Source of the DNA: an uncultured Gammaproteobacteria bacterium
Lineage (GTDB): Bacteria; Patescibacteriota; Microgenomatia; Levybacterales; GWA1-39-11
DNA: 64,000 nt
Reading direction: 5' to 3'
Assembly (NCBI GenBank): GCA_964450885.1
Contig: CAYVFE010000001.1
Span: 160,489-224,488, forward strand
The position numbers and the translations under genes are program-made. Below the pieces are notes generated by a model that saw only the letters and a program-made list of their open reading frames with translations, was not told the DNA's origin and ran no database searches. Shown one piece after another: positions 2,085 to 43,294 of the stretch; position 1 is the first letter of the stretch, and every line of letters starts with the position of its first letter.

Positions 2085-4065
<1,981 letters not shown>

Positions 4066-11164: not shown

Positions 11165-11198
11165 TGACAAATTAGCAGTCAATATGATAGAGTGCTAA
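11165..11198 (+). promoter_or_regulatory. TTGACA -35 box followed by a CIRCE operator (TTAGCAGTC-N9-GAGTGCTAA) upstream of hsp20
   Basis: ttgaca at 11165-11170. ttagcagtc aatatgata gagtgctaa at 11172-11198, one mismatch to the HrcA consensus TTAGCACTC-N9-GAGTGCTAA. Confidence 0.6.
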
Positions 11199-13514: not shown

Positions 13515-13551
13515 TTGACAACAGTTAGCAGTCATGATATATTAGTGCTAA
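13515..13551 (+). promoter_or_regulatory. TTGACA -35 box followed by a CIRCE-like operator (TTAGCAGTC-N9-TAGTGCTAA) upstream of hrcA
   Basis: ttgaca at 13515-13520. ttagcagtc atgatatat tagtgctaa at 13525-13551, with the same left arm as the hsp20 site. An extra half-site ttagcactt sits at 13577-13585, just before the hrcA start. Confidence 0.55.
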
Positions 13552-14314: not shown

Positions 14315-14355
14315 AAGTTATTGATAATTATAAATTGAAAGTTTAAATTAGATAA

Positions 14356-14811
14356 ATGATGAAAGATGAAAAGAAACAAACAATTAAGAAAAAGACAAAT
14401 GATAAGAACCTTGAAAATCAAATAGCGAGTCTGGAGGAGAATCTGAAAAGAGCTCTTGCTGACTATCAGAATCTGGAAAGAAGGGTTTTGAATGAGAGAG
14501 CTGATTTGGTAAAATATGCGAATCAGGAGCTTTTAAAGAAAATCATCCCTTCATTTGACAATCTATATCTGGCTGAAAAATATATTAAAGACGAAGGAGT
14601 AAAATTAACCATCCAAAAGCTTACAGAGAACTTAGGAGAGGTAGGAGTTAAAAGAATCGATGTTGTGGGGAAAGAGTTTGATCCGGTAAAAATGGAATGT
14701 GTAGAAGTCGTAGATGGAGATAAAGATATAGTTGTTGAGGAGACAACACCAGGATTTATGCTATTTGATAAAGTAATTCGTCCTGCAGCAGTAAAAGTAG
14801 GAAATAAATAA
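14356..14811 (+). CDS. grpE: Nucleotide exchange factor GrpE
   Basis: Coiled-coil N-terminus. C-terminal FDP..MECV...GFMLFDKVIRPA is the GrpE beta-sheet domain pattern. Confidence 0.8.
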   Translation: MMKDEKKQTIKKKTNDKNLENQIASLEENLKRALADYQNLERRVLNERADLVKYANQELLKKIIPSFDNLYLAEKYIKDEGVKLTIQKLTENLGEVGVKRIDVVGKEFDPVKMECVEVVDGDKDIVVEETTPGFMLFDKVIRPAAVKVGNK

Positions 14812-14835
14812 AAAAAATATTAAAATAAAATAATT

Positions 14836-16749
14836 ATGGGAAAAATAATAGGAATAGATTTAGGAACAACTAATTCGTGCATGGCCGTCATGGAAGGCGG
14901 TAGCCCTAAGGTGATCTTTAATTCTGAAGGGAAAAATACAACACCCTCAGTCGTTGATCCAGTAGACGGGGTAGTAGGAGATGTTGCAAAACGTCAGATG
15001 GTTCTAAAGCCAGAGCGCGTTATCTACTCTGTAAAGCGTTTGATGGGTAGACGTTTTAAGGACAAGGAAGTAAAGGAGGCCGCAGAATTTTTACCTTATA
15101 AAATAGTTGACGGAAAAAATGGGATGGCTGCCGTTGAAGTCGATGGAAAAACATACACCCCACAGGAAATATCAGCAAAAGTACTACAGAAATTAAAGAA
15201 AGACGCAGAAGACTATCTGGGAGACAAAGTAACACAGGCAGTTATTACTGTTCCCGCATATTTTGATGATGCGCAGCGACAAGCTACAAAACAAGCTGGA
15301 GAAATTGCGGGTCTTGAAGTTTTGAGAATCATAAATGAGCCAACTGCAGCGGCGCTTGCCTATGGTATGGATAAAAAACATGCTCATACTATTGCAGTTT
15401 ACGACCTGGGAGGAGGAACTTTTGATATTTCGATTTTAGAGTTAGGCGAAGGCGTTTATGAGGTGAAGGCTACAAATGGAGACACTCATTTAGGAGGAGA
15501 CGATTTTGATCAGGTGATAATAGATTATCTGGCTGATGAATTCAAAAAGGAAAATAGTGTTGACCTAAAAGCTGATAAGCAGGCTTTGCAAAGACTTAAA
15601 GAGGCAGCTGAAAAAGCAAAGATTGAACTTTCTTCCTCAAAAGAAGTTGATATCAATCAGCCATTTATTACGATGTCTGCAAGCGGCCCGCTGCATTTGA
15701 CTACAAAATTATCACGTTCTAAGTACGAATCTTTAGTTTCGGATCTTGTCAAAAAGACTTTTGACCCCGTAAAACAGGCTCTCAAAGATGCAGGCGTAGA
15801 TGCTTCAAAGATAGATGAGGTAATCATGGTCGGAGGAATGACCAGAATGCCAAAGATCGTTGAGGAAGTAAGTAGCTTTTTCGGGAAAGAACCCAATAAG
15901 AGCGTTAACCCAGATGAGGTTGTTGCTGTGGGTGCTGCAGTACAGGCTGGAGTTTTGGGAGGGGATGTAAAAGACGTTCTGCTTCTTGATGTTACTCCGC
16001 TTACGCTAAGTATTGAGACATTGGGAGCCGTTGCTACACCTCTTATTGAGAAGAATTCTACGATTCCAACTAAAAAATCTCAGGTATTCTCAACCGCTGC
16101 TGACAACCAGACACAGGTGGATATTCATATTTTGCAGGGTGAACGGCCGATGGCTGCTGACAACAAGGATTTGGGAAGATTTATTCTTGATGGTATTCCG
16201 CCAGCTCCGCGTGGCGTACCACAAATCGAAGTTACATTTGATATCGATGCGTCAGGAATACTCTCCGTTACCGCAAAAGATAAGGCAACAGGAAAAGAAC
16301 AAAGTATAAAAATTACCGGGTCCACTGGGCTTTCTGACGAAGAGGTAGATAAGATGACAAAAGAGGCTGAGATGAATGCGGAGGAGGACAAGAAGAAAAA
16401 AGAGCTTATTGATGCAAAAAATAGCGCCGAGGCTTTGATAATAACCGCAGAGAAAAGCATGAAGGATATAAAGGATCTGCCCGAAGATGATAAGAAAGGA
16501 CTTGAGGATCTGATTGAAGAACTTAGAAAGACGCTTGAGGGCGAAAGCAAGGATGAAATTGAGGAAAAGACACAAAAACTCTCAGAAGCGCTATCAAAGG
16601 TGGGCGAAAAGATGTATTCCCAGCAGGGAGAGCAGTCTTCGGATGAAAAGTCCGATAATGAAGATGAAAAAAGCGGAGAAAAGGATGAAGACAAGAAAGA
16701 CAAAGAGAATGTTGAAGAAGGCGAAGTCGTAGACGACAACAAAAACTAA
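14836..16749 (+). CDS. dnaK: Chaperone DnaK (Hsp70)
   Basis: [19 protein letters not shown] and acidic C-terminal tail. 637 aa. Confidence 0.97.
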
Positions 16750-16801: not shown

Positions 16802-17098
16802 ATGCAAGATTGTGCTCCAAATGAGATATTGACAGACTTTGGATGTATCCCTGATGATCCTGTTGGATTCGTGCAAAAGTTCTATGGAATAGGTCTGGGA
16901 TTTATAGGTATGGTCGCGCTGATTTTTATCATAATTGGTGGGTATAACATAATGACCTCTCAGGGTGATCCTACAAAGCTTGCGACCGGAAAATCCTTCA
17001 TTACATATTCGATAATTGGGGTATTATTGGCGATTTTTGGTTTTGTTTTCATAGAAGTGGTTACTGGAGATATATTAAGAATTCCAGGATTTAACTAA
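16802..17098 (+). CDS. TrbC/VirB2-like pilin-type small membrane protein
   Basis: 98 aa. Two long hydrophobic helices (GIGLGFIGMVALIFIIIGG and IIGVLLAIFGFVFIEVV) separated by a short polar loop, with Cys pair C4/C15 near the N-terminus. Immediately upstream of the VirB6-like gene. Confidence 0.5.
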   Translation: MQDCAPNEILTDFGCIPDDPVGFVQKFYGIGLGFIGMVALIFIIIGGYNIMTSQGDPTKLATGKSFITYSIIGVLLAIFGFVFIEVVTGDILRIPGFN

Positions 17099-17100
17099 AG

Positions 17101-19494
17101 ATGAAGAAATTACTGCCCATAATTTGTTCTATTCTATTTGCTGCATTTGCTTTTTTCGCAGTAGTAAATACTTCTAATGCTCAGGTTATCGGCACAACTC
17201 CAACTCCCGAATCCCCATCAGGGGACTGGAAGAAAGATCAAGAGGTAACCTTTATAGGTAAGACCGCTGCCCGATCAAACGAATTTTTGCAATGGACGCT
17301 CCAGAATTATCAATGGATAAGTATCACTCCGGAAAATCCTACAAATCCTCTTGCTGAGTTCTGGGGTGTTATAAGAAATATTGTCTTGGCGCTTCTTGTG
17401 CTTTTTATTCTAGCAGCTGCATTTGTGATTATTATTACCCGTGGTCAGAACATAACCATAATGCGGTTTATCCCACGATTTATAATAATCATTCTTCTGA
17501 TTGTATTTTCTTTTGCTATCCTTAGATTTTTGTATCAATTTTTCGACGTAATCCAGGGATTTTTCCTTCGGACTACTGATCCTGCAGGAGGACCCGACAG
17601 ATTTATAGAGCCGAAAGACCTTTTATATATAGCTTTTGATTATAAGAGCTTCATAGGATTTAGGCAGGTTGGGATGGAGTTTGATGAGTCTGCTTATATA
17701 TCGCTTCTTTTGGTGAAAATTACTGCGGTTACATATTACGTGATGACAGGAATTCTTTTGATCAGAAAAATCATACTATGGTTTTTCATAATTATCTCAC
17801 CTGTTTTCCCATTGTTGCTATTTTTCAGGCCTCTAAGAAATACTGCAAAGATATGGGTGGGCGAATTTTTTAGGTGGCTTCTTTACGCTCCTCTGTTTGC
17901 AATATTCTTGCATGGGCTTGTCGTAATGTGGAGGGATAGGATTCCTTTGTCTTTTGATTTTTCTCAGGTTGGAACACAGATTTATCCTACTGCTATAAAT
18001 ATTTTACTAGGAGGTCCGGGACAGCAGATAGGGCTCAATAATTCTGTTAACTTTCGTGATACATTCGCACTTTATGTTGTAGCGCTTCTTATGCTTTGGG
18101 TGGTCATTCTTCTCCCCTGGCTATTGTTGCAGATATTTTTGGATTATCTAAATAATCTTTCGCTCTCTGAGACTCCTTTTTATCAAAGAATAGCCCAGAC
18201 GAATATCCCATTTATAAATAGGCCGATTGGTAAGGGACCAGATACGCCACCATCCGTTCCACCACAGGGTCCAGCATCAGCAGGGCTCGCCCGTAGTCTT
18301 CCATTTATGAACAAACGTGCTATGCAGATTCCTGTTAAGAAAGTTACAAGTGCCGACAATAACAAAAACATCTCATCTCGTCAAAATATCTCTAATATTT
18401 CATCTGAGACAAGCGAGGTAGTAAGACTTGCGAACCTTTCGGTTCCCAAGATGAGAGATATTGCCCGCATGGAATCGGCATCTATTACTAAGAATCAGTC
18501 AGTCCAAAACCAAAAGACGGAGATAACTAACAAATTGACGCAGATATCATCTCCCGCTTCTGCGCCGGCGATTGAGCGCGAAAAGATCACCACCATAAAA
18601 GAAAAGCTTGTACAGATGCAGCAAAAAGGAGATCCAGTCGCAAGTTCTATATTAAGTGCTTCAAGATTAGGATCGAGAGGAGCAATGACATCGGAGATGA
18701 TCAAAAACAAACTGGCGGTAACTTTGCAGCATATTGCAAGTCCTTCGATGGCTTTGACTGCGCAAGAGAGGCAGAAGGTGCAAGATATACGACAAGAGCT
18801 TTTGTCAGCTCAACAACAAGGCAATCCGCTTGCGACATATATCTTGGATATGAGTGAGAAAGTAAGTGGGGAAAACGTAAATGAAAAGGAGAAGCAGTCA
18901 CTTATAGATAGAGTAAAAGAGAAACTTTCAGCAGAAAAACAGAAAGGAAACAAACTTGCCGAAAAAGTGCTTCCAGCAGAAGGTGCAACAACGATCGCTG
19001 CAGCATCTCTTCCTAGTGTCAATCGAGTTCAGCAGGTAAGTCTGGATGAGTACGAAGAAGTCAAAAATATTTGGAAAGAAAACTATACGAATATGGAACC
19101 CCCTGCGCCTCTTGATGGTAAGACACTGACCAAGGAAGAATGGATCAATAATGATATTCAAAAAATAGATGAAACTATAAATCTACTTAGTTCTCCCGAC
19201 CAGACACAGGTACAAAAGGGCATGGAAATGGTTTCCGACATATTGCCGTTTCTACTCATAGGAGGTTTCTCAAAGGCTGAGGTCATTGCCTATCTTAAAG
19301 CAAAGCAAGCTGCCGGCAAAGAAGTCGCAGGGCAGGTTGAACAGAAGAGGAATGAGGAGGATACACTTCTTGAGAATAAGCCTAAGAAGGAAGAAAATTC
19401 AGCTGAGATGACGATGAAAAGAGAGTTGCCAATAGAAAACGCCCAGGAAAATAGTGGAAATCCTGATAAAGATCCATCAACAAATGCATCTTAG
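17101..19494 (+). CDS. VirB6/TrbL-like polytopic membrane protein with long C-terminal repeat-containing tail
   Basis: Signal peptide, about 6 TM helices and a roughly 400 aa hydrophilic tail. The tail has three imperfect repeats (EKLVQMQQKGDPVASSIL / QELLSAQQQGNPLATYIL / KEKLSAEKQKGNKLAEKVL). 2 nt gap after the pilin-like gene. Confidence 0.55.
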   Translation: MKKLLPIICSILFAAFAFFAVVNTSNAQVIGTTPTPESPSGDWKKDQEVTFIGKTAARSNEFLQWTLQNYQWISITPENPTNPLAEFWGVIRNIVLALLVLFILAAAFVIIITRGQNITIMRFIPRFIIIILLIVFSFAILRFLYQFFDVIQGFFLRTTDPAGGPDRFIEPKDLLYIAFDYKSFIGFRQVGMEFDESAYISLLLVKITAVTYYVMTGILLIRKIILWFFIIISPVFPLLLFFRPLRNTAKIWVGEFFRWLLYAPLFAIFLHGLVVMWRDRIPLSFDFSQVGTQIYPTAINILLGGPGQQIGLNNSVNFRDTFALYVVALLMLWVVILLPWLLLQIFLDYLNNLSLSETPFYQRIAQTNIPFINRPIGKGPDTPPSVPPQGPASAGLARSLPFMNKRAMQIPVKKVTSADNNKNISSRQNISNISSETSEVVRLANLSVPKMRDIARMESASITKNQSVQNQKTEITNKLTQISSPASAPAIEREKITTIKEKLVQMQQKGDPVASSILSASRLGSRGAMTSEMIKNKLAVTLQHIASPSMALTAQERQKVQDIRQELLSAQQQGNPLATYILDMSEKVSGENVNEKEKQSLIDRVKEKLSAEKQKGNKLAEKVLPAEGATTIAAASLPSVNRVQQVSLDEYEEVKNIWKENYTNMEPPAPLDGKTLTKEEWINNDIQKIDETINLLSSPDQTQVQKGMEMVSDILPFLLIGGFSKAEVIAYLKAKQAAGKEVAGQVEQKRNEEDTLLENKPKKEENSAEMTMKRELPIENAQENSGNPDKDPSTNAS

Positions 19495-19533: not shown

Positions 19534-22443
19534 ATGTTTGGAGATTTATTTAAGAAAAAACAATACGAGCAAAATCCGGCGGCTCCTCAAAATCCGCAAG
19601 GACCATTTGCGCCTAATAATCAGTATCCTGTACAGCAAATGCAGCAGGGGCAAATGATGGGACAGCCTCAACAGATGCCAGCGCAAATGATGCCAAATCA
19701 AGGGATTGCTGGGTCGACGATGGATCCTGGAAAAAGGCAGAATGTAAATGCTCTTTCCCATTTAGATTCGCGCTCCAATCAGATACTTCAGCAGGCTCAG
19801 AGCGAAGCGAAGAAGTATCAGCATCCAGCGATAGAGCCAGATTTACTGCTTCTCTCTCTCACCTATGACAGAGAGATATATAAACTTTTGCAAAAGCATG
19901 AAGTGGATGTAGCATCCCTTGCAAAAGAAATAGAGTCCAAGCAGCAGGTAGGAACTGCGACAACTCCTCCTATTCTAAGTGAAAGTACTCAGCGTATTTT
20001 TGATGAATCTTATAAATTCGCTACAAAAAGAGCTTCAAGTTTTATTTCTCCGGAGGATTTGCTTTTGGCAGTCTTTTCATCGGAGGCGGCCCAAGCTCTT
20101 TTGACCTCAAAAGGAATCGATAAAAAAGATTTTGAGCAGACACTGGAAAAAGATTCAAAATTCAAGACCGGTAAAAAAAGCGTTATTGAGGAATATGGTA
20201 TAGATTTGACAGCTGAGGCTGGGAGCGGAAAGCTGGATCCAGTCGTCGGACGCGAGAAAGAAATAGAGAGGACGATTCATATATTGCTTCGAAGGAGCAA
20301 GAATAACCCAATCCTTATTGGAGAGGCGGGAGTAGGTAAAACTGCAATAGTTGAAGCACTCGCTCAGTTAATCGTAAAAAAGCAGGTCCCTAAGGATTTG
20401 CAGGATAAGAAAATAATTCAACTCGATCTAACATCGCTCATTGCGGGTGCATCTCATAGAGGGGAATTTGAGGAGAGGTTGAAAAACGTAATAAAAGAGG
20501 TGATGCTTTCTGAAGGAAGACTGCTGCTTTTCATCGATGAGATCCATACATTAATAGGTGCCGGAACTACTGATGGTGCGATGGATGCCTCAAATATTAT
20601 AAAGCCATATCTCGCGAGAGGGCAGTTGCAGCTGATCGGTACGACAACGACAGCAGAGTATAGAAAATATTTCGAGAAAGATAAAGCATTTCAAAGAAGA
20701 TTTCAGGCGATCATCATAGATGAGCCATCGATAGAGACCGCTATTGAGATGATGAAGGTTCTTCAGGTAAAGTATGAGAAATTTCATAACGTTACCATAA
20801 CGCCCGAAGCTATAGAGTATTCGGTTAAACTTTCTAAAAAGTATATTGGAGAACGATATTTACCTGATAAATCAATCGATCTTATAGACGAAGCGTCTGC
20901 TGAGGTAAAACTTATGGCTGCGGAGGGGAAGCGAAAAGATACTCAGGTGGTTCGATCTGACATAGAAAAAGTCGTAAGTGCTTGGACAGGAATACCCATA
21001 ACAAAGCTTACAGAGGATGAAAGCAAGAAGCTGTTAGGTCTTGAAGATCTGATCCATAAAAGACTTATAGATCAGGAGGAAGCTGTAAAATCCGTCTCAG
21101 AGGCGGTTAGACGCGGGCGTATAGGACTTGCCTCAGCAAATCGCCCGATTGCATCTTTTATATTTCTAGGCCCTACAGGAGTCGGTAAGACAGAGCTTGC
21201 AAAAACGCTTGCAGAAATTTTATTCGGCCGTGATGATGCGATGGTGAGGCTTGATATGTCTGAGTATATGGAAAAGCATGAGGTTGCAAAGCTTATCGGT
21301 GCACCCCCTGGGTACGTCGGTTATGAGGAAGGCGGACAGCTGACAGAGGCGGTTAGGCAAAAACCTTATTCTATAGTTCTGCTTGATGAGGTTGAGAAAG
21401 CACACCCTGACGTCTTTAATATTCTTTTGCAGCTTCTTGAGGATGGAAGACTTACAGATAATAAAGGAAATACTATATCATTTAAAAATACAATAGTTAT
21501 AGCTACATCAAATATTGGTAGTAAGCTTATCCAAGAGACTTTGACTACTCAAAAAGAAGTAAAGGCGCTATCTGTTGCTGCAGATAAAGATAGTAAAAAT
21601 GATAGGCAGAATGGTCAGGTTCAATCTGCTCAGCCGCAAGTTTCCCAGCCTCAATCCTCTGCTCCAAGCGACCAAAAGAAACCAGAGATGACAGAGGAGG
21701 AAAAAATCGATGAGAAAGTATTCAAAGAGCTCTCAAAAAATCTTATGGATGAGTTGATAAAGTTTTTCAGACCAGAGCTTATAAATCGTTTTGATGGGGT
21801 CGCAATATTTAAGCCACTAACAGAAAAGTATATGAATGCGATCGCCAAGTTAGGCATAAAAAATACCCAGAAATTACTCAAAGAACAGGGATTTGATCTT
21901 CAAATAACCGATAAGGCTATTGAAGTTCTGGCAAAGGATGGATTTGATCCCGTTTACGGAGCAAGACCCTTAAGACGTCTTATCCAAACAGTTATAGAAA
22001 ACCCGATAAGCATCGAGATAATCGGAAAAAAATTTATCCAAGGAGATATCATAATTGTTGATTATGATGAAGTTACTAAGAATTTTACCTTCAAAAAATC
22101 GCCTAATTCAAAAAGTTTGCAAAATAATTCTACGCAGCCAGGAGGAATTCCACAAAATCCTATAGATCCGAATATAGCTCCAGGTGATGCTTTGAATGTG
22201 AATGGTCAAATGCAAGGCCAACCAAATATGCAAAATGACATGAATGCAAATAATGGTTATCAGCAGGTTGGTCCGATACAAAATGGACAGGCGCAAATGC
22301 CACAACAGCAAAACGGTGGCATGATAGTAGATCCGGCAGCGCCAATTACCCAAGATCCTGCTCCCGCTCCTCCTCCTGTTGACCCGACAACGGGAGAGGC
22401 TATGACGATGGCAGTTAACGGAAATAATCAGAATCAATTATGA
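19534..22443 (+). CDS. ClpC/ClpB-family Hsp100 AAA+ unfoldase (two AAA+ modules, no M-domain, no ClpP-binding loop) with Gln/Asn/Pro-rich N- and C-terminal extensions
   Basis: Start taken at ATG 19534 (MFGDLF). The 19510 ORF start is TTG. Clp_N repeats. D1 has GEAGVGKTA and LLLFIDEIHTL. D2 has FLGPTGVGKTE and SIVLLDEVEKAHPDVFNILLQ. There is no coiled-coil insertion between DLIDEA and SAWTGIPI, and no [IVL]GF tripeptide. Confidence 0.85.
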   Translation: MFGDLFKKKQYEQNPAAPQNPQGPFAPNNQYPVQQMQQGQMMGQPQQMPAQMMPNQGIAGSTMDPGKRQNVNALSHLDSRSNQILQQAQSEAKKYQHPAIEPDLLLLSLTYDREIYKLLQKHEVDVASLAKEIESKQQVGTATTPPILSESTQRIFDESYKFATKRASSFISPEDLLLAVFSSEAAQALLTSKGIDKKDFEQTLEKDSKFKTGKKSVIEEYGIDLTAEAGSGKLDPVVGREKEIERTIHILLRRSKNNPILIGEAGVGKTAIVEALAQLIVKKQVPKDLQDKKIIQLDLTSLIAGASHRGEFEERLKNVIKEVMLSEGRLLLFIDEIHTLIGAGTTDGAMDASNIIKPYLARGQLQLIGTTTTAEYRKYFEKDKAFQRRFQAIIIDEPSIETAIEMMKVLQVKYEKFHNVTITPEAIEYSVKLSKKYIGERYLPDKSIDLIDEASAEVKLMAAEGKRKDTQVVRSDIEKVVSAWTGIPITKLTEDESKKLLGLEDLIHKRLIDQEEAVKSVSEAVRRGRIGLASANRPIASFIFLGPTGVGKTELAKTLAEILFGRDDAMVRLDMSEYMEKHEVAKLIGAPPGYVGYEEGGQLTEAVRQKPYSIVLLDEVEKAHPDVFNILLQLLEDGRLTDNKGNTISFKNTIVIATSNIGSKLIQETLTTQKEVKALSVAADKDSKNDRQNGQVQSAQPQVSQPQSSAPSDQKKPEMTEEEKIDEKVFKELSKNLMDELIKFFRPELINRFDGVAIFKPLTEKYMNAIAKLGIKNTQKLLKEQGFDLQITDKAIEVLAKDGFDPVYGARPLRRLIQTVIENPISIEIIGKKFIQGDIIIVDYDEVTKNFTFKKSPNSKSLQNNSTQPGGIPQNPIDPNIAPGDALNVNGQMQGQPNMQNDMNANNGYQQVGPIQNGQAQMPQQQNGGMIVDPAAPITQDPAPAPPPVDPTTGEAMTMAVNGNNQNQL

Positions 22444-22895
22444 TAAGAAATCTTTCAATAAAAAATAAAAAGTTGATAATAGTTTTGATATTTATAGCTG
22501 TTCTTATTCCTATAATAATATTTATTACAGCTTCAGTAGCTAAGTCAAATTCAAAAATTGATGACATAGCACCTACTCCTATCGATGAGATTCCAAGTGA
22601 GGAGGATGAAAATGCTTACGAATTAGAGCTTCTCGTAGGTGTTCCTACTATCATACCCGGGACTGATATAGAGCTCAAATTAGTCTCAACAAGTAATCAG
22701 CCTGCTGATTGTTTCGATTGTATAGCTTTGACAATAGTCGAGGTGCAAAGCGCAGGAGAAGTGGCTGTCTGGGACTATGCCTGCGGAGGATTTTCGGGGG
22801 AGTGTAATTATCAATTCAAAAAATTTGGATATGTAATCGAAGCCTTAGACTTGAAGATTGATTCGATGGTAGTAAAAGTTTATCCGGAAGAGTGA
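22440..22895 (+). CDS. Small N-terminally anchored protein with four Cys
   Basis: 151 aa, N-terminal TM helix IIVLIFIAVLIPIIIFI, Cys in CFDC...C..C context. ATGA overlaps on both sides. Confidence 0.45.
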   Translation: MIRNLSIKNKKLIIVLIFIAVLIPIIIFITASVAKSNSKIDDIAPTPIDEIPSEEDENAYELELLVGVPTIIPGTDIELKLVSTSNQPADCFDCIALTIVEVQSAGEVAVWDYACGGFSGECNYQFKKFGYVIEALDLKIDSMVVKVYPEE

Positions 22896-25800
22896 TGAAG
22901 AATAATATCCCCCAACCCGTGATATTTGGGATCATCGGGCTAGTTCTGTTTGCGATAGCCTTTTTCGCAATCCTTATTAGTTTGAATAATAATCCCAAAG
23001 CGAATGTGTCGATTTCCGGAGATGATACTATCCGGGAAATTACTGTCAAATATCCAGAGAGCGGATATATAGCCAGATCTACAAATGAGAATGCGGCAAG
23101 AGAGTATTTAGCTGAAAGCGGAATTGTAGGCGAGTCATATATAGATAATTCGGAGATAGCAAGGTCGGTTGAAGACGAAGATGATAGTAGTAGTTCAAGC
23201 GAACATAACATTCAAGTTCCTGCCAGTCATTATTTCTTTCAACAGTATATCGATGGAGTAGCAGTTCAGGACTCTATTTTAGGAGTCCATGTTCGCAATA
23301 ACAATGAAGTGTATTATGTTTCTGGAAATGCGCTGGTTACGTTTGATGTCGAAAGTGAGAATATTACTGTTGAAGAGGCCGTAAGTAAGGCGGTTGATGA
23401 AGCAAAAAAAGAAGTAGGTGAAACAGTAGATATGGAGCTGTCTACCGCAGAAAAAGTGATCTATAACAGTAAACTAATAGGTCTGTCTAGCGACAATAGA
23501 AATATCCCGACAGTAAAAGTGACAGTGAGCACTGAGGCAAATTCTTTAAATTTTGCCAAAGAGTATTTTATATCCCTTATAGATGGGGAAAAACTTGAAG
23601 AAAGAACACTCATTTTTCACGCACTCAACAGAACTATATTTGACTGTGGCGGATCCCAAACTTCGTGTTCGCAGGTTAGAAGCGAAGGAGCGCCTCCATA
23701 TGGAGCCAGGGATATAGATGACGGATATAATTACTTTGGCGATACATATAATTTCTATTTCAATAACTACCAAAGAGATAGTTATGACGGCAATGGTGCC
23801 CAGCTAAGAGGATATATGAACTATTATACGGGGAGTCCTAATGCAGGATGGGATTCGAAAGCTGGCAGGATGATCTATAGCTCGAATATGGTGACCCCAG
23901 ATATCACCGGACATGAGCTGACTCATGCAGTAACATCTTCTACAGCAGGGCTAATATACAACGCTCAATCAGGAGCCATAAATGAGGGGATGTCTGATGT
24001 GTTCGGGTGGGCTGTTGATCCTAACGATTGGACTTTGGGTGAAGGGTCTGCTTTGGGGGTCATAAGATCTTTAAGTAATCCCCCCTCCCATAATCAACCA
24101 GATAGACTTTTCGCATCTAACTATTGGTGCAGTTCAGCTGATAACTACGGTGTACATCAGAATAGCGGAATAATAAATAAAACCTTCTATCTATTAGTAG
24201 AAGGTGGCTCATTTAATACATGTAACGTATCTTCGATCGGCAAAGATAGAGCGCTGGCGATATTCTATCGCGCTTTAACCCGATATCTGACTCCGTCTTC
24301 TAATCTAAAAAATCTATATGATTCCTTACTACAATCATGTAACGATTTGTATGCAGGTGATGCGGGAGTTTGTGAGCAGGTAGATATTGCTTCACAGGCA
24401 ACAGAGATAGATCAACAGCCTGCTGGAAGCCAGTCAGGACCTGTGTGTTCTGGAAATTCTGGACAACCTCCTAAGTGCTCTGGAAATCAGGGAGGAACGA
24501 TTCCGACATCAGTACCGAACCAGCCAACATTAACACCAACGTCTGGAGCTCAGGTGAGATATTATATTTCAGGTAGGATATATCAAGATAATAACGGTAA
24601 TACCCAATATGATACCAGTGACACTCCATTGAGCAATCAGTCGGTGGGTCTTTCTGGGAGTTTTACAGACACCGTCAGTACGCTTTCTGATGGGACATTT
24701 ATTTTCGATAACCTTTTTAACGGAACATTCAATGTTTCTTATGATAGTAGTGCAAGAAATGATATCTCGCTTTCCCAGACGCAGAGTGCGGTGAGCGTCA
24801 ATTTTATCGTGACCAAGGATCCGTTAAATCCGACGCCAACTATAGTAGCTGGTCCTACATCCGTTCCTACGACTCCAACCCCTGCTGCATCCACCCCTAC
24901 CCCTGTATCTGCTACCACGATCCCTACTCCTACAACACCGATCCTATACACATGTGAGTATGATCCGAAATGTGCCACTGGAAAAAAGAATATACAGCTA
25001 TGTCCGCTTGTATGCACAGAGAAATTTGGCGATGGGGGAGGCGGGCGTGGAGGCTCGTCAATTCCTCCAGCACCTACGAGTACTCCTGGTGGCGGATCAG
25101 TGCCAACGTCTACTCCGCAGCCTGGTCAGGTGGCTACATCTACTCCTATTACTGGAAATGGGCAAGGTGCACCCTTGGATGTAGGGAGTCTCGTAAATGA
25201 TGTTTCGGAATCAAATATCAGAAACTATATGCAAAGTCTTGTTGATGATGATGATATCGCGGGGGATGACCAGTCACAAACAAGATACACCTCTACGAAT
25301 GGGAATCAGACAGAGGCAAATTATATATACAATACCCTTCAAGGTTTTGGATTAAACGTGGAGTATCAGCAATTTAATTTTTCCGGCAATACTACAAGAA
25401 ATATAATCGGGAAAGTTCCTGGGAAAGATGCAAATAGAGTTTATTTAGTTACAGCTCATATGGACTCGACATCCGGCTCGACTGATCCTGCTCCAGGCGC
25501 AGACGATAATGCCAGTGGGACAGTAGCAGTTATGGAGGCAGCAAGGGTACTAAAGACCATGCAGGACAAGTTGAATGTTTCGCTAGAATTTATTTTGTTC
25601 TCCGGGGAAGAGCAAGGGCTTTATGGGAGTTCGTATTATGCAGGAAATATTCCTTCAGGGAAAAAAATAGAGGGAGTTATAAATTTGGATATGATAGGAA
25701 ACGATTCAGGGAGCGCGTGTGTGAATTTTGGATATAAAAATTATAATGGTGGAGATATCATGTCAAACAAGATAATAGAGATGATCCAGAAGTATAATAT

Positions 25801-26014
25801 AAATCTTGGGGGATCATCTGTCTCCACATCAAATGCCAGAAGTGATCATGCTCCATTCTGGAGTAGAGGAATTCCAGCAATCTTTGGACATGAATGTACA
25901 TTTAGCTCTGTATACCATAGTACTAACGACAAGATCGAATTTATCAATTTTGCACAAATAACAAATACTGCAAAAGGAGTAGTTGCTGCGGTTGCAGAAT
26001 TATCAACACAATGA
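22892..26014 (+). CDS. Secreted fusion protease: M4 thermolysin-like endopeptidase (FTP+PepSY propeptide) - Cna-B/SdrD-like beta-sandwich - Pro/Thr linker - M28 aminopeptidase
   Basis: Signal anchor. FTP pattern HYFFQQYIDGVAV. HExxH in TGHELTHAV, third zinc ligand in NEGMSDVFG. M28 ligand pattern AHMDS, GADDNASG, GEEQGLYGS, NLDMIG and HSTNDKIEFIN. Confidence 0.8.
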   Translation: MMKNNIPQPVIFGIIGLVLFAIAFFAILISLNNNPKANVSISGDDTIREITVKYPESGYIARSTNENAAREYLAESGIVGESYIDNSEIARSVEDEDDSSSSSEHNIQVPASHYFFQQYIDGVAVQDSILGVHVRNNNEVYYVSGNALVTFDVESENITVEEAVSKAVDEAKKEVGETVDMELSTAEKVIYNSKLIGLSSDNRNIPTVKVTVSTEANSLNFAKEYFISLIDGEKLEERTLIFHALNRTIFDCGGSQTSCSQVRSEGAPPYGARDIDDGYNYFGDTYNFYFNNYQRDSYDGNGAQLRGYMNYYTGSPNAGWDSKAGRMIYSSNMVTPDITGHELTHAVTSSTAGLIYNAQSGAINEGMSDVFGWAVDPNDWTLGEGSALGVIRSLSNPPSHNQPDRLFASNYWCSSADNYGVHQNSGIINKTFYLLVEGGSFNTCNVSSIGKDRALAIFYRALTRYLTPSSNLKNLYDSLLQSCNDLYAGDAGVCEQVDIASQATEIDQQPAGSQSGPVCSGNSGQPPKCSGNQGGTIPTSVPNQPTLTPTSGAQVRYYISGRIYQDNNGNTQYDTSDTPLSNQSVGLSGSFTDTVSTLSDGTFIFDNLFNGTFNVSYDSSARNDISLSQTQSAVSVNFIVTKDPLNPTPTIVAGPTSVPTTPTPAASTPTPVSATTIPTPTTPILYTCEYDPKCATGKKNIQLCPLVCTEKFGDGGGGRGGSSIPPAPTSTPGGGSVPTSTPQPGQVATSTPITGNGQGAPLDVGSLVNDVSESNIRNYMQSLVDDDDIAGDDQSQTRYTSTNGNQTEANYIYNTLQGFGLNVEYQQFNFSGNTTRNIIGKVPGKDANRVYLVTAHMDSTSGSTDPAPGADDNASGTVAVMEAARVLKTMQDKLNVSLEFILFSGEEQGLYGSSYYAGNIPSGKKIEGVINLDMIGNDSGSACVNFGYKNYNGGDIMSNKIIEMIQKYNINLGGSSVSTSNARSDHAPFWSRGIPAIFGHECTFSSVYHSTNDKIEFINFAQITNTAKGVVAAVAELSTQ

Positions 26015-26646
26015 AAAAAATACTACTGATATTAACTCTATTTCTACTGGCATTTTTATTTTTTAGAGGAGAGGGGTATGCACAAGAGAATGGAGGAATA
26101 CTTGTTGTTACAGTTTATGAGACTAGAGAGGATATAGATATATTATTTGAAAATAGCCTTAGGGTCCTCGAGTACCTAGAGGGCGTCGATGTAGAGGAGC
26201 CGATATTTTTATCTCTTGTGAGTGATCAGCAGATAAAAAATCTACAAGACAACAATCTAGATCCACAAGTTATTGATGATAATGCTGATCTTGATTCCTA
26301 CATTCTTTTGTATAATCCTTTAGAAAATCAGGGAGAGAAGCTTTCTGGTTTTGGTGAACCTATAGAAATATCCAAACACTATACGCTTCTCAAGCTATCT
26401 CCTGGTCAGGAATTCTCCCATGAGGGAGAAGGTGTTGCTTTTTTCGATATTCCATTTCAAGAGGTTGTTGTTACTCCTCCGCTTAGAACGAAAACAGCAA
26501 CTGAAGCTATAGATGTAGCTACTGAAAATGAGCAAAGCATAAATCCTGTAATATTTGTAATTTTAGCGATAGTTATAGTAGGTTTGGGAATAGGGGCATT
26601 TTTCTTCATAAGAAATAAAAGAAACGGTGATTATCAGCCTCAATAA
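26011..26646 (+). CDS. Hypothetical exported protein with C-terminal TM anchor
   Basis: Signal peptide MKKILLILTLFLLAFLFF. C-terminal VIFVILAIVIVGLGIGAFFFIRNKRNG. ATGA overlap with the protease gene. Confidence 0.45.
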   Translation: MKKILLILTLFLLAFLFFRGEGYAQENGGILVVTVYETREDIDILFENSLRVLEYLEGVDVEEPIFLSLVSDQQIKNLQDNNLDPQVIDDNADLDSYILLYNPLENQGEKLSGFGEPIEISKHYTLLKLSPGQEFSHEGEGVAFFDIPFQEVVVTPPLRTKTATEAIDVATENEQSINPVIFVILAIVIVGLGIGAFFFIRNKRNGDYQPQ

Positions 26647-26690: not shown

Positions 26691-27557
26691 ATGGCAAAAG
26701 ATTTTTATGATGTTTTGGGCGTGAAAAAAGGGGCAAGTCCTGAGGAGCTTAAAAAAGCCTATAGGAAGCTTGCTGTCGAGTTTCATCCTGACAAGAACAA
26801 ATCGAAAGAGGCAGAAGGCAAATTCAAGGAGATAAACGAAGCCTATGAAGTGCTTTCAAATCCTGCGAAGCGCCAAAATTATGATCAATTCGGATCTAGC
26901 GGAGCTCAAGGCAGCGGACCTTTTTCGGGTGGAAATCCATTTGGTGGCGGAGGTGGTCAAGGTCCATTCAAATACTATTATTCTTCAAGCGGGGGAGGCT
27001 CACAGGGATTTGATTTCGGTGGGACAGATCCTTTCGATATTTTCGAACAATTTTTTGGTGGGGCTTCTCCTTTCGGTCGGCAAAAACCGTCATATTCTCT
27101 TGCTATCGATTTTATGGATGCGGTAAAGGGAGTAACAAAAAGAATCGACTTGAATGGAAAAAAAAGAGATATAAAAATTCCAGCCGGAATAAACTCTGGG
27201 CAAAGAATTAGATTTGATGATTTTGATATTGTAATTGATGTAAGACCTGACGATTTTTTTGAGCGCCGTGGCGCAGATGTATTCTCCGAAGAAGATGTGC
27301 CATTTACTATGGCGATTCTGGGGGGAGTAAAGGAAATAAGGTCGTTAGAAGGTAAGGTTAAGCTTAAGATTCCAGGAGGAACCCAGCCGGATACGTTGAT
27401 AAGGATTAAAGATAAGGGAATAAAGGAGATCAATGGAAGAGGGCATGGTAGCCACTTTGTAAGAGTAAAGGTGGAGATACCAAATAAGATAAATTCCAAG
27501 CAGAAAAAACTCATTGAGGAATTTGAGCAGGAGAGCTCAAAAAAGGGTTGGTTCTAA
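26691..27557 (+). CDS. dnaJ: DnaJ-family co-chaperone lacking the zinc-finger domain (CbpA/class II-like)
   Basis: J-domain DFYDVLGV...HPDKN, Gly/Phe-rich segment and C-terminal beta-sandwich domains. No CxxCxGxG repeats. Confidence 0.85.
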
Positions 27558-27607: not shown

Positions 27608-27961
27608 ATGAAAACTGCCCTGATGTATCCATTTGAGCTATTAATATTTTGGTATCATGATATTTGTCTGGGTGCGATAGATTATTTTACCCGCCTAAAT
27701 TCGTATATTTTGCAGGTTCTCTCTACGCCACTGCTTTTGAGAACATTCTTCAAGCCTCTCAAGAACGAGTACAGAAAGGGGCTCGTACTGTTCTCGATAG
27801 TCTTTGGAATTCTCGTGAAGACTTTTTTGATCGGATTTTCACTGACGGTCCTGTTGGTCCTTATAGTCATTGAGCTTTTTATTGTGGCGCTACTTTTTTT
27901 GTCGCCAATAATCTTAATCTATTTATTATATGCAGGAGAAAATATTTTTCAATTTATATAG
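27608..27961 (+). CDS. Small hypothetical membrane protein
   Basis: 117 aa with 3 hydrophobic helices. Overlaps the 5' end of the next gene in another frame. Confidence 0.3.
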   Translation: MKTALMYPFELLIFWYHDICLGAIDYFTRLNSYILQVLSTPLLLRTFFKPLKNEYRKGLVLFSIVFGILVKTFLIGFSLTVLLVLIVIELFIVALLFLSPIILIYLLYAGENIFQFI

Positions 27962-35697: not shown

Positions 35698-35703
35698 GCA
35701 TTT

Positions 35704-42586: not shown

Positions 42587-42588
42587 AA

Positions 42589-43284: not shown

Positions 43285-43294
43285 TGCATCTTAT

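What the first reader, a model, noticed from the sequence alone, without database searches (positions are those of the whole stretch)
19534..22443. Hsp100 unfoldase has prion-like Gln/Asn/Pro-rich termini and a Q-rich insertion in D2, with no ClpP-docking loop and no M-domain
The protein has intact Walker A and B motifs in both AAA+ modules. About 70 aa at the N-terminus (NPAAPQNPQGPFAPNNQYPVQQMQQGQMMGQPQQMPAQMMPNQ) are low-complexity. About 110 aa at the C-terminus (QNNSTQPGGIPQNP...NGQMQGQPNMQNDMNANNGYQQVGPIQNGQAQMPQQQNGG...) are also low-complexity. A roughly 40 aa Q/S-rich insertion sits inside D2 (DRQNGQVQSAQPQVSQPQSSAPSDQKK). The D1-D2 junction is ClpC/ClpA-like and short, so there is no ClpB middle domain. 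The D2 loop where ClpA/ClpC carry the IGF/VGF ClpP-docking tripeptide has none. This combination is a ClpP-independent unfoldase carrying aggregation-prone or phase-separating tails. It is unusual for bacterial Hsp100s and may mediate self-assembly or targeting to the partner proteins encoded next to it.
Basis: partly seen in the sequence, partly recalled or inferred. Interest (0 to 1): 0.5.

Follow-up and report, generated by a model that had tools for sequence, protein, structure and literature searches.

The report
Tailed Hsp100 chaperone of ultrasmall bacteria
This is a real but unusual protein-unfolding chaperone found across a group of ultrasmall (Patescibacteria) bacteria: it lacks the two parts that normally connect such chaperones to Hsp70 or to a protease, and its floppy Gln/Asn/Pro-rich ends look more like flexible tethers carrying small conserved docking motifs than like prions.

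Summary
ORF 19534-22443 encodes a 969-aa class-I Hsp100 with Clp_N, two AAA+ rings with intact Walker A and B motifs, no M-domain, and no [ILVM]G[FL] ClpP loop. It has a ~63-aa N-terminal tail, a ~109-aa C-terminal tail, and a ~55-aa D2 insertion, all predicted disordered.

None of this is an artefact. All 117-120 closest homologues (57-100% identity, Patescibacteria/Microgenomates) share the architecture.

The "prion-like" reading is weak:
- Q/N richness is not conserved. Only 10 of 117 homologues reach 30 Q/N per 80 aa.
- The tails are Pro-rich and poor in aromatics.
- The tails carry conserved short motifs: M[FL]G[ND]LF at residue 1 in 119/120, and G-T-Q-M-Q near the C-terminus in 81/120.
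- The D1 pore-loop Tyr is replaced by His/Arg family-wide.

In 11/11 loci the gene lies in a CIRCE/HrcA heat-shock cluster, hrcA-grpE-dnaK…dnaJ. It always sits directly after a VirB2-like pilin gene and a VirB6/TrbL-like membrane protein gene.

Best reading: a stress-regulated, ClpP-independent, M-domain-less unfoldase whose disordered tails tether it to partners. It is a new variant of a known kind, of moderate interest.

The parts
19534..22443 (+). Hsp100 gene (969 aa): Clp_N, D1 and D2 AAA+ modules, no M-domain, no ClpP loop, disordered tails
19534..19560 (+). N-terminal short linear motif MFGDLFKKK (family consensus M-[FL]-G-[ND]-L-F-x-x-K-K)
   Evidence: Present in 119/120 homologues, and at residue 1 in 116. 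Unique to the Hsp100 in 9 loci searched in six frames.
19534..19722 (+). N-terminal disordered extension (aa 1-63), Q/N/P/M/G-rich
   Evidence: pLDDT < 50 for residues 2-63. Composition. Length varies from 34 to 215 aa across the family.
19762..20178 (+). Clp_N double-repeat N-domain (aa ~77-215), preceded by the conserved MDPxKRQN element (aa 63-70)
20179..20937 (+). D1 AAA+ module. Walker A 20320-20343, Walker B 20524-20541, pore loop AGASHRG 20443-20463 with His in place of the conserved Tyr.
   Evidence: The pore loop is ASHR/ASRR/AAHR/AARR in 120/120 family members and xK[YF]R in 73/73 controls.
20860..20997 (+). D1-D2 junction of ClpA-like length (LPDK…WTGIP, 46 aa), where ClpB carries ~120 aa and ClpC ~54 aa of coiled-coil M-domain
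20938..22107 (+). D2 AAA+ module plus D2-small domain. Walker A 21169-21192, canonical GYVG pore loop 21310-21321, Walker B 21373-21390, sensor-1 TSN 21505-21513, sensor-2 GAR 21958-21966.
21541..21741 (+). D2 insertion (aa 670-736) at the position of the ClpP-docking helix-loop-helix of ClpA/ClpC. Two helices flank a disordered Q/S/P-rich loop (aa 690-718, nt 21601-21687). No [ILVM]G[FL].
22114..22440 (+). C-terminal disordered tail (aa 861-969), Q/N/P/G/M-rich
22312..22422 (+). Conserved island within the C tail: NGGMIVDPAAPITQDPAPAPPPVDPTTGEAMTMAVNG. Family motifs are G[MI]IVDP, PPP[FV][ND]P and [DG]G-T-Q-M-Q.
   Evidence: The C-terminal motif is present in 81/120 homologues against 0.2 expected from shuffled tails.
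13515..13551 (+). Best sigma-70-like promoter (TTGACA-17-TATATT, with TG) overlapping a CIRCE element (13525-13551, 2 mismatches), upstream of hrcA
13592..16749 (+). hrcA (13592-14314), grpE (14356-14811), dnaK (14836-16749)
16802..17098 (+). 98-aa VirB2-like pilin (two hydrophobic helices). Conserved upstream neighbour.
   Evidence: PF18895 T4SS_pilin E = 3.7e-5, below threshold. The same family is flagged in 7 of the related loci.
17101..19494 (+). 797-aa polytopic VirB6/TrbL-like membrane protein with a conserved ~400-aa C-terminal cytoplasmic region. It ends 39 nt before the Hsp100 start.
   Evidence: TrbL PF04610 hits 23/48 orthologues, best E = 8e-7. Adjacent to the Hsp100 in 11/11 loci.
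22440..26646 (+). Downstream genes with overlapping start/stop codons: 151-aa membrane-anchored protein (22440-22895), M4+M28 secreted metalloprotease (22892-26014), 211-aa signal-peptide protein (26011-26646)
   Evidence: A secreted S8 or M4 protease gene lies shortly downstream (directly, or after one small ORF) in 9/11 loci.
26691..27557 (+). dnaJ
27608..30308 (+). 117-aa membrane protein plus a second, degenerate, membrane-anchored Hsp100 paralogue (27930-30308, 792 aa)

Best explanation
The gene encodes the lineage-typical Hsp100 of a Microgenomates-group Patescibacteria bacterium.

Proposed mechanism:
- It is a hexameric, two-ring AAA+ protein unfoldase. It threads substrates mainly with its canonical D2 ring (GYVG pore loop).
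- It has lost both standard coupling devices of the family: the coiled-coil M-domain, which is the DnaK-docking and repression switch of ClpB/ClpC, and the [ILVM]G[FL] loop that docks ClpA/ClpC onto ClpP.
- It therefore most likely acts as a non-proteolytic, stand-alone unfoldase/disaggregase.
- It is co-expressed with HrcA-GrpE-DnaK-DnaJ from a CIRCE-controlled heat-shock gene array.
- The N- and C-terminal Gln/Asn/Pro-rich segments are intrinsically disordered tethers. Their function lies in small conserved motifs: M-F-G-N-L-F at the extreme N-terminus, and GMIVDP…PPPFNP…DGTQMQ near the C-terminus. Six copies per hexamer would give avid docking to a partner or to substrates.
- The best partner candidates are the products of the invariably adjacent genes (VirB6/TrbL-like membrane protein, VirB2-like pilin) or DnaK.

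Shown by computation: the architecture, the motif losses, the predicted disorder, the motif conservation, the synteny, and the CIRCE/promoter elements.

Inferred: hexamer formation, unfoldase activity, independence from ClpP and from M-domain-type DnaK control, heat-shock co-transcription, and the tether/docking role and identity of the partner.
For: Family and domains:
- Pfam and NCBIfam place the protein in Hsp100 but below every equivalog cut-off.
- Best PDB sequence matches are ClpB at 684 bits, ClpC at 660 and ClpA at 499.
- The M-domain is missing and there is a ~55-aa post-sensor-1 insertion.

Family-wide features in 117-120 homologues:
- Walker A to Walker A distance is 282-284 aa.
- Walker B DE is present in both rings, and the D2 pore loop is GYVG in 119/120.
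- The D1 pore loop has His or Arg instead of Tyr in 120/120.
- No ClpP tripeptide in 115/117.
- N extensions are 34-215 aa. C tails run to a median of 145 aa after GAR, against 53 in controls.
- Short-loop family members have ClpC-length loops with polar sequence where ClpC has VGF/LGF.

Tails:
- AlphaFold2 predicts the tails and the insertion loop as disordered.
- The conserved short motifs are far above chance and unique to this protein in the loci examined.

Genomic context:
- The order hrcA-grpE-dnaK-(dnaJ)-pilin-like-VirB6-like-Hsp100 holds in 11/11 loci. Two of these were reached independently from the VirB6-like protein.
- A CIRCE element overlaps the best promoter before hrcA, and a second CIRCE precedes Hsp20.
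- Intergenic gaps are short or overlapping, and no intergenic terminator-like site lies between 13.6 and 32.4 kb.

Phylogeny and ClpP:
- An NJ tree places the CPR clade equidistant from ClpB-like and ClpC-like proteins.
- ClpP is common in Patescibacteria genomes (K01358 at 120.8%; PMC12361377). The missing loop is therefore not simply a by-product of a ClpP-less phylum.
Against: - There are no experimental data for any family member.
- I could not test whether this genome encodes ClpP, ClpX or a canonical ClpB.
- M-domain deletion abolishes DnaK-dependent disaggregation in ClpB (textbook knowledge). 'Disaggregase' is therefore not guaranteed, and the protein could be a dedicated remodeller of one substrate.
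- AlphaFold2 did not dock either terminal motif onto the folded body (pLDDT ~42 for residues 1-10).
- The N-motif has only a low helical hydrophobic moment, 0.17-0.32. Nothing points to a particular binding mode.
- Co-transcription from the hrcA promoter across ~19 kb is inferred only.
- The Hsp100 could be linked functionally to the membrane module rather than to general proteostasis.
Confidence: 0.55

Rival explanations
1. Dedicated motor of a membrane module. The Hsp100 is the cytoplasmic ATPase of the VirB2-like/VirB6-like pair encoded directly upstream. It would unfold or extract proteins (pilin subunits, cargo, or the long cytoplasmic tail of the VirB6-like protein) at the membrane. This is analogous to ClpV with the type VI sheath or to Plasmodium HSP101 with the PTEX pore. 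The terminal motifs would be the docking elements.
For: - The triad pilin-like / VirB6-like / Hsp100 is adjacent in 11/11 loci with 5-200 nt gaps. This holds when the search starts from the VirB6-like protein.
- TrbL/VirB6 signal is found in 23/48 orthologues.
- The loss of the DnaK and ClpP coupling elements, and a D1 pore loop without Tyr, fit a specialised remodeller.
- A second, membrane-anchored Hsp100 paralogue lies in the same array.
- No VirB4 or VirD4 ATPase gene is present in any of the loci.
Against: - The module sits inside a classical heat-shock operon, which favours a proteostasis role.
- The VirB2 and VirB6 assignments are below the Pfam thresholds.
- There is no evidence of physical interaction.
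- The neighbouring proteases carry ordinary Sec-type signal anchors and do not need such a motor.
- There is no precedent for Hsp100-T4SS coupling. The Patescibacteria T4SS survey does not mention Clp, chaperones or DnaK.
Confidence: 0.2
2. The Q/N-rich tails are prion-like or phase-separating domains. They would drive self-assembly or condensation of the chaperone, for example onto aggregates or into stress-induced foci.
For: - The C tail reaches 30 Q/N in 80 aa and the N tail 28/80.
- The tails are predicted disordered, with low charge and enrichment in M, G and P.
- Six tails at each end of the hexamer give multivalency.
- A compositional bias towards polar, uncharged residues is conserved across the family.
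Against: - Q/N richness is not conserved. The median is 18/80, and only 10/117 homologues reach 30/80.
- Proline is high (13-14% here, median 19% in the family) and aromatics are about 2%. Both are unfavourable for amyloid cores.
- Conserved sequence motifs, rather than composition, are the selected feature.
- Other unrelated ORFs in the window are as Q/N-rich or more so: 36/80 at 55072-56130 and 29/80 at 49566-50786. This suggests a genome-wide tendency.
Confidence: 0.1
3. Non-canonical protease partner. The protein still delivers substrates to ClpP or to another peptidase, docking through a hydrophobic tail motif (C-tail GMIVDP[YF] / PFNPF, or N-terminal FGNLF) instead of the D2 loop tripeptide.
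For: - ClpP genes are common in Patescibacteria (PMC12361377).
- The C tail emerges from the D2-small domain near the protease-facing side. It carries conserved hydrophobic islands.
- The helix-loop-helix that normally presents the tripeptide is retained and enlarged.
- A protease gene lies shortly downstream (directly, or after one small ORF) in 9/11 loci.
Against: - There is no [ILVM]G[FL] in the loop, and none in the tails of the window protein.
- The C-terminal motifs are not at a fixed distance from the C-terminus. They lie 2-11 residues from the end, unlike HbYX-type docking tails.
- The downstream proteases are extracytoplasmic M4/M28 or S8 enzymes with signal anchors, not chambered peptidases.
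- No ClpP gene is present in the window or in any of the ~20-kb loci.
Confidence: 0.08
4. Artefact: the tails or the insertion result from mis-assembly, a frameshift or a wrong start codon.
For: - Low-complexity DNA is prone to assembly error.
- A gene caller did truncate the N-terminus of one orthologue (L090).
Against: - The reading frame is continuous.
- A second public record gives 968/969 identical residues, including both tails.
- All 120 homologues from many independent samples have the tails. MFG[ND]LF is at residue 1 in 116 of them.
Confidence: 0.01

Closest known systems
ClpB (bacterial Hsp100 disaggregase, TIGR03346)
   Same: - Best-scoring family by HMM (887 bits) and by PDB sequence search (684 bits).
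- Clp_N plus two active AAA+ rings.
- D2 is ClpB-like (TSN-x-GS-x-LIQ) and has no ClpP loop.
- Encoded with the DnaK system and heat-shock regulated.
   Different: - The whole ~120-aa coiled-coil M-domain is missing.
- The D1 pore-loop Tyr is replaced by His.
- It has a ~55-aa D2 insertion.
- It has ~63-aa and ~109-aa disordered tails with conserved motifs.
- Its score is below the curated cut-off (887 < 1232).
ClpC (Firmicutes/Actinobacteria ClpP partner)
   Same: - Nearest non-Patescibacteria relatives are ClpC-type proteins, 38-47% identical.
- Same N-domain and ring organisation.
- Short-loop family members have a post-sensor-1 loop of ClpC length.
   Different: - It lacks the ~54-aa half M-domain (Walker A to Walker A distance 283 vs 337).
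- It lacks the V/LGF tripeptide (present in 65/73 controls, 2/117 here).
- It lacks the D1 pore Tyr (73/73 controls, 0/120 here).
ClpA
   Same: - The D1-D2 junction has the same length and no M-domain. It aligns as one uninterrupted stretch, query 85-664 to ClpA 10-610.
   Different: - Much lower similarity (499 bits; TIGR02639 score 718 < 993).
- No IGL ClpP loop.
- There is no evidence for a ClpS-type adaptor.
ClpV/TssH and Plasmodium HSP101 (PTEX)
   Same: - These are Hsp100s that act without ClpP and without Hsp70 coupling.
- They are dedicated to a membrane-associated secretion machine and are encoded or assembled with it.
- As I recall, ClpV also lacks an aromatic D1 pore-loop residue. 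I did not test this.
   Different: - The TIGR03345 score is below the cut-off (674 < 885).
- There are no T6SS or PTEX components nearby.
- Both ClpV and HSP101 retain an M-domain-like insertion.
- The partner module here would be VirB2/VirB6-like.
Stand-alone disaggregases ClpG/ClpK and ClpL
   Same: - Hsp70-independent Hsp100s with extra terminal extensions used for substrate or aggregate binding. They are stress-linked.
   Different: - They keep an M-domain.
- Their extensions are folded domains or different sequences.
- Scores of 626 and 655 are far below the 1900 cut-offs.
Q/N-rich prion-like domains (e.g. yeast Sup35, C. botulinum Rho)
   Same: - Uncharged, disordered, Q/N-enriched terminal segment on a conserved enzyme. 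The C tail just meets the criterion of 30 Q/N per 80 aa.
   Different: - High proline and very few aromatics.
- Q/N richness is not conserved among orthologues.
- It contains conserved linear motifs.

Membership tests
Class-I Hsp100/Clp ATPase | Clp_N domain plus two AAA+ modules with Walker A/B, sensor and arginine-finger residues, and a D2-small domain | tested here: met
ClpB | Coiled-coil M-domain (~120 aa) inserted in the D1 small subdomain | tested here: not met
   Query 460->469 spans ClpB 400->528. The Walker A to Walker A distance is 283 aa in 117/117 family members.
ClpB | Score at or above the NCBIfam equivalog cut-off (TIGR03346, 1232 bits) | tested here: not met
   886.7 bits
ClpB | Absence of a ClpP-docking tripeptide | tested here: met
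ClpB | DnaK-dependent disaggregation | not testable with these tools
   Only co-location with hrcA-grpE-dnaK-dnaJ is shown.
ClpC | Half M-domain (Walker A to Walker A distance ~337 aa) | tested here: not met
   283 aa, against 332-341 aa in 72/73 controls
ClpC / ClpA / ClpE (ClpP partners) | [ILVM]G[FL] tripeptide in the helix-loop-helix after sensor-1 of D2 | tested here: not met
   Absent in the window protein and in 115/117 homologues. Present in 65/73 controls.
ClpA | Score at or above the TIGR02639 cut-off (993 bits) | tested here: not met
   718.3 bits
ClpA/ClpB/ClpC | Aromatic residue (K-Y/F-R) in the D1 pore loop | tested here: not met
   AGASHRG here. His or Arg in 120/120 family members, Tyr or Phe in 73/73 controls.
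ClpV/TssH | TIGR03345 cut-off (885 bits) and a T6SS gene neighbourhood | tested here: not met
   674 bits. No T6SS families among the window ORFs scanned.
ClpG/ClpK | NF033607 / NF033606 cut-offs (1900 bits) | tested here: not met
   626 and 655 bits
Prion-like (Q/N-rich) domain | At least 30 Q+N in 80 consecutive residues | tested here: inconclusive
   C tail exactly 30/80, N tail 28/80. PLAAC and PAPA were not available.
Prion-like (Q/N-rich) domain | Prion-like composition maintained among orthologues | tested here: not met
   10/117 reach 30/80, and 3/101 outside the close clade. The median is 18/80.
Prion-like (Q/N-rich) domain | Self-templating amyloid or condensate formation | not testable with these tools
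   Needs experiment.
HrcA/CIRCE heat-shock regulon | CIRCE inverted repeat at the promoter of the transcription unit | tested here: inconclusive
   A CIRCE with 2 mismatches overlaps the best promoter before hrcA. That site is 6 kb upstream of the Hsp100, in a co-directional array without intergenic terminators. Co-transcription is not shown.

The most novel reading that the evidence does not exclude
In Microgenomates-group Patescibacteria, an orphan VirB2-like pilin, a highly divergent VirB6-like channel protein and this M-domain-less, ClpP-loop-less Hsp100 form a previously unrecognised three-part membrane machine embedded in the heat-shock operon. The Hsp100 hexamer would dock through its conserved MFGNLF and GTQMQ tail motifs. 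It would power extraction or translocation of proteins at the membrane. That makes it an Hsp100-driven counterpart of ClpV-T6SS or HSP101-PTEX, standing in for the usual VirB4/VirD4 ATPases.
Probability: 0.2. Interest if true: 0.8.

Novelty: new variant of a known kind. Interest (0 to 1): 0.5.

Why it matters
Hsp100 chaperones are normally sorted by two coupling devices. The M-domain links ClpB/Hsp104 (and, in shortened form, ClpC) to Hsp70 or to regulatory control. The IGF-type loop links ClpA/C/E/X to ClpP.

This lineage-wide Hsp100 has neither. It also has an altered D1 pore loop and conserved docking motifs on long disordered tails, yet it still sits in the DnaK heat-shock operon.

It therefore offers a natural test of how an Hsp100 can be targeted and regulated without the canonical modules. 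It also bears on how genome-reduced, host-dependent Patescibacteria organise proteostasis.

The invariant adjacency to VirB2-like and VirB6-like genes matters for a second reason. A recent survey found VirB6 homologues 'scarce' in this class (PMC12102498). The adjacency may locate the missing VirB6 and point to an unexpected chaperone-membrane machine link.

The finding is also a caution. Q/N-rich composition alone over-calls 'prion-like' domains. Here, conservation analysis shows that motifs are under selection, not composition.

Tried and rejected
1. The genome-contig scan with the protein returned only non-Patescibacteria ClpC genes, 38-47% identical. The degenerate peptide patterns hit the conserved core. 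It was useless for synteny, but I reused the hits as a control set.
2. The look-up of encoding contigs for the window's own Hsp100 (P0001) and its VirB6-like protein (P0271) returned 'not on record'. The listing of cluster members gave no organism names. The source genome could not be identified or scanned for clpP, clpX, clpB or virB4.
3. A search with a 61-aa C-tail segment, to find the motifs on other proteins, returned only two short fragments. Six-frame motif scans of 9 loci found the motifs only in the Hsp100.
4. I tested the idea that MFGNLFxxKK is an amphipathic membrane-targeting helix. The hydrophobic moment is low, 0.17-0.32, so this is not supported.
5. I tested the idea that a terminal motif docks back onto the folded body. 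AlphaFold2 leaves both termini at low confidence and undocked.
6. Literature searches found no description of this subfamily. The terms were CPR/Patescibacteria with ClpB, ClpP or ClpX, Hsp100 lacking an M-domain, bacterial prion-like domains, and CPR T4SS. The Patescibacteria T4SS paper has no mention of Clp, chaperone or DnaK.
7. Placement as a ClpB or a ClpC derivative failed. The NJ tree and distances show the clade equidistant from both, 0.74-0.75.
8. I did not run a PLAAC- or PAPA-style score. The parameter tables were not available and I would not reconstruct them from memory.

Full report
1. What is there

The ORF 19534..22443 (+) is intact and encodes 969 aa from the ATG. An in-frame TTG lies 24 nt upstream. 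The ATG is the real start, because the first six residues (MFGDLF) correspond to a motif that is residue 1 in 116 of 120 homologues.

Pfam finds two Clp_N repeats, AAA, AAA_lid_9, AAA_2 and ClpB_D2-small. NCBIfam ranks ClpB first (887 bits), then ClpA (718), ClpV (674), ClpK (655) and ClpG (626). Every score is below the curated cut-off. Against PDB sequences the best matches are E. coli ClpB (684 bits), S. aureus and B. subtilis ClpC (660 and 653) and ClpA (499).

Walker A and B motifs are intact in both rings. The D2 pore loop is the canonical GYVG.

2. The claimed anomalies are real

- M-domain. In the ClpB alignment, query 460->469 spans ClpB ~400->528, so the ~120-aa M-domain is absent.
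- D2 insertion. Query 670-736 faces ClpB 729-740, a net ~55-aa insertion right after sensor-1.
- ClpP loop. The only [ILVM]G[FL] strings in the protein (LGL501, IGL530) lie in conserved D2 N-terminal helices, not in the ClpP-loop position.
- Tail composition. The N tail (1-77) is 30% Q+N and 13% P. The C tail (859-969) is 32% Q+N and 14% P. The core is 6.9% Q+N (binomial P = 1e-9 and 1e-14). The insertion is only mildly Q/N-biased and is also highly charged.
- Disorder. AlphaFold2, run with a 69-sequence alignment, gives pLDDT < 50 for residues 2-63, 690-718, 861-944 and 957-969. It models the insertion as two long helices (659-687 and 721-744) flanking a disordered loop. This is an enlarged version of the helix-loop-helix that presents the IGF/VGF tripeptide in ClpP-binding relatives.
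- One correction. The junction has ClpA length, not ClpC length.

3. It is a family, not an oddity or an artefact

The 120 best database hits (57-100% identity; those with names are 'Candidatus Levybacteria' or 'Patescibacteria group') all have the same build. Levybacteria belong to the Microgenomates group of Patescibacteria.

Features across the family and in a control set of 73 ClpC-type genes from other phyla (the closest non-Patescibacteria relatives, 38-47% identity):

| Feature | This family | ClpC-type controls |
|---|---|---|
| Walker A to Walker A distance | 282-284 aa in 117/117 | ~337 aa |
| N extension | 34-215 aa | not measured |
| Post-sensor-1 segment | 41-146 aa | ~40 aa |
| Residues after GAR | median 145 | median 53 |
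| [ILVM]G[FL]-like string in the loop | 2/117 | 65/73 |
| D1 pore loop | ASHR 111, ASRR 4, AAHR 3, AARR 2 (no aromatic in 120/120) | aromatic in 73/73 |

In the family, Walker B is DE in both rings and D2 is GYVG in 119/120.

Family members with the shortest loops have ClpC-length loops in which polar residues (…LSEGGANMKPEEF…) replace …NKYVGFN…. The tripeptide is therefore genuinely lost, not displaced.

A second public record encodes the same protein with one conservative change and identical tails.

In the 50%-identity representative library the family collapses to a handful of clusters. Its nearest relatives include forms with a ClpC-length junction but the same His/Arg pore loop. In an NJ analysis the Patescibacteria clade is equidistant (0.74-0.75) from ClpB-like and ClpC-like proteins.

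4. The tails are tethers with motifs rather than prion domains

Q/N richness varies widely among orthologues: 7-35% in the N tail and 9-56% in the C tail. The median maximum is 18 Q/N per 80 aa. Only 10/117 reach the classical 30/80 criterion, and only 3/101 outside the window's immediate clade.

What is conserved is a proline-rich (median 19%), low-charge (6%), aromatic-poor (2%) disordered character. Other ORFs in the window are as Q/N-rich or more so: 36/80 at 55072-56130 and 29/80 at 49566-50786.

Short sequence islands, by contrast, are strongly conserved:
- M-[FL]-G-[ND]-L-F-x-x-K-K at the N-terminus in 119/120.
- MDPxKRQN just before the N-domain.
- In the C tail, G[MI]IVDP in 49/120 and PPP[FV][ND]P in 57/120.
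- [DG]G-T-Q-M-Q, 2-11 residues from the end, in 81/120, against 0.2 expected from shuffled tails.

These motifs occur only in the Hsp100 in six-frame scans of nine loci. Neither terminal motif is docked onto the body in the AlphaFold2 model. The N motif has a low helical hydrophobic moment. The binding mode is therefore open.

5. Genomic context

The gene lies in a chaperone island.
- GroEL is at 2398-4065.
- Hsp20 is at 11231-11668, preceded by a CIRCE element with 1 mismatch at 11172-11198.
- A second CIRCE (13525-13551, 2 mismatches) overlaps the best sigma-70-like promoter of the region (13515-13543), just before hrcA.
- A co-directional array follows with short or overlapping junctions and no intergenic terminator-like sites. 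Its order is: hrcA, grpE, dnaK, a 98-aa VirB2-like pilin, a 797-aa VirB6/TrbL-like membrane protein, the Hsp100, a 151-aa membrane protein, an M4+M28 secreted protease, a 211-aa protein, dnaJ, a 117-aa membrane protein, a second Hsp100, a 2-hydroxyacid dehydrogenase and a prenyl synthase.

The order dnaK…pilin-like, VirB6-like, Hsp100 is found in all 11 loci examined. Nine were reached from Hsp100 homologues or the window, and two independently from VirB6-like homologues. Those two neighbouring Hsp100s also carry M[FL]GNLF, the 283-aa spacing and ASHR.

A secreted protease gene lies shortly downstream (directly, or after one small ORF) in 9/11 loci. It is M4 in some genomes and S8 in others.

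The VirB6 assignment is remote but consistent. TrbL is the only recurrent Pfam family, hitting 23/48 orthologues with a best E of 8e-7.

No ClpP, VirB4 or T6SS gene lies in the window.

6. How it most likely works

The most likely model is a hexameric unfoldase that translocates mainly through D2. It is not coupled to ClpP, because the docking tripeptide is lost family-wide while ClpP is common in the phylum (PMC12361377). It is not controlled by DnaK through an M-domain. It is expressed with the DnaK system under HrcA.

The disordered tails supply avid, long-reach docking through their conserved motifs. Candidate partners are the adjacent VirB6-like and pilin-like proteins, DnaK, or substrates.

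Everything beyond the architecture, conservation and synteny is inference.

Rival models, in order of my estimate:
- A dedicated motor for the VirB2/VirB6-like membrane module, ClpV- or PTEX-like (0.2).
- Prion-like or condensate-forming tails (0.1).
- Non-canonical docking to ClpP through tail motifs (0.08).
- Artefact (0.01).

7. Comparison with known families and novelty

The protein works like a ClpB- or ClpV-type non-proteolytic Hsp100. It fails the defining tests for ClpB (M-domain, HMM cut-off, D1 Tyr), ClpC (half M-domain, VGF), ClpA (IGL, cut-off), ClpV (cut-off, context) and ClpG/K (cut-offs).

Databases label family members generically as 'ATP-dependent Clp protease ATP-binding subunit' or 'ClpC'. 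That label is misleading, because the ClpP loop is absent.

I found no paper describing this subfamily. I rate it a new variant of a known kind, with interest about 0.5. It is a clean, lineage-wide natural 'double-deletion' Hsp100 with conserved tail motifs and an intriguing invariant link to a VirB6-like membrane protein. It has no experimental support, and its core function is probably ordinary proteostasis.

Noticed in passing
window 27930-30308 (+), with 27608-27961: A second Hsp100 paralogue (792 aa) lies in the same array. It has N-terminal transmembrane helices and a degenerate D1 Walker B (FIENIEN). Neither pore loop has an aromatic residue; D2 reads LGEMPGEQSF instead of GAPPGYVGY. 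It has no M-domain and no ClpP loop. D2 Walker A and B are intact. The same features recur in 7 orthologues, and 4 of them have also lost the D1 Walker A. A ~110-aa membrane protein precedes the gene here and in 4 related loci (L081, L082, L087, L090). It looks like a membrane-anchored pseudo-unfoldase.
   Followed up: partly
window 16802-17098 and 17101-19494 (+): A VirB2-like pilin and a divergent VirB6/TrbL-like polytopic protein sit between dnaK and the Hsp100, far from any VirB4. This holds in 11/11 related loci. A 2025 survey of Patescibacteria T4SS reported VirB6 homologues as 'scarce' in Microgenomatia and suspected extreme divergence (PMC12102498). This family may be the missing VirB6.
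   Followed up: partly
window 18500-19100 (within the 797-aa protein, aa ~470-660): The cytoplasmic C-terminal half of the VirB6-like protein contains three similar ~45-aa helical repeats: …IKEKLVQMQQKGDPVASSIL…, …IRQELLSAQQQGNPLATYIL… and …VKEKLSAEKQKGNKLAEKVL…. After the repeats comes a strongly conserved C-terminal block (…VQQVSLDEYEEV…LPFLLIGGFSKAEVIAYLKAK…). These are possible docking sites.
   Followed up: no
window 22892-26014 (+); L081-L090: The gene slot shortly downstream of the Hsp100 (directly, or after one small ORF) holds a secreted, signal-anchored protease in 9/11 loci, but of different families. It is a fused M4 (thermolysin-like) plus M28 aminopeptidase here and in L088, M4 in L082 and L090, and S8 subtilase in L081 and L083-L086. 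This looks like non-orthologous replacement at a conserved position.
   Followed up: partly
window 11172-11198 and 13525-13551: There are two CIRCE-like inverted repeats, with 1 and 2 mismatches (0.03 expected by chance). One precedes an Hsp20 gene (11231-11668). The other overlaps the -10 region of the promoter before hrcA. GroEL (2398-4065) lies 7 kb upstream. The region is a heat-shock island.
   Followed up: partly
window 55072-56130, 49566-50786, 47344-49671 (+): Three ORFs without Pfam hits have Q/N densities equal to or above that of the Hsp100 tails (36, 29 and 26 Q/N per 80 aa). The latter two lie just upstream of a sortase gene (50870-51427) and may be surface proteins. Q/N-rich low complexity is not specific to the chaperone in this genome.
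   Followed up: no
L090 11397-14000: The public gene call for one orthologue starts at an internal Met (811 aa). This cuts off the conserved MFGNLF motif and the N-terminal extension, although the frame is open upstream. Automated annotation can therefore hide the N-terminal tail of this family.
   Followed up: yes
window 22108-22437 (-): A 109-aa antisense ORF overlaps the C-tail coding region. It is most likely a spurious by-product of the low-complexity sequence.
   Followed up: no
window 32401-37182 (-) and 41375-44545 (-): Two sets of efflux-type genes are present: an AcrB-type RND pump with a HlyD-like adaptor, and a MacB-type ABC transporter (FtsX/MacB_PCD plus ATPase) with a second HlyD-like adaptor. 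These tripartite-pump components are usually discussed for diderm envelopes, so they are notable in a Patescibacteria genome.
   Followed up: no
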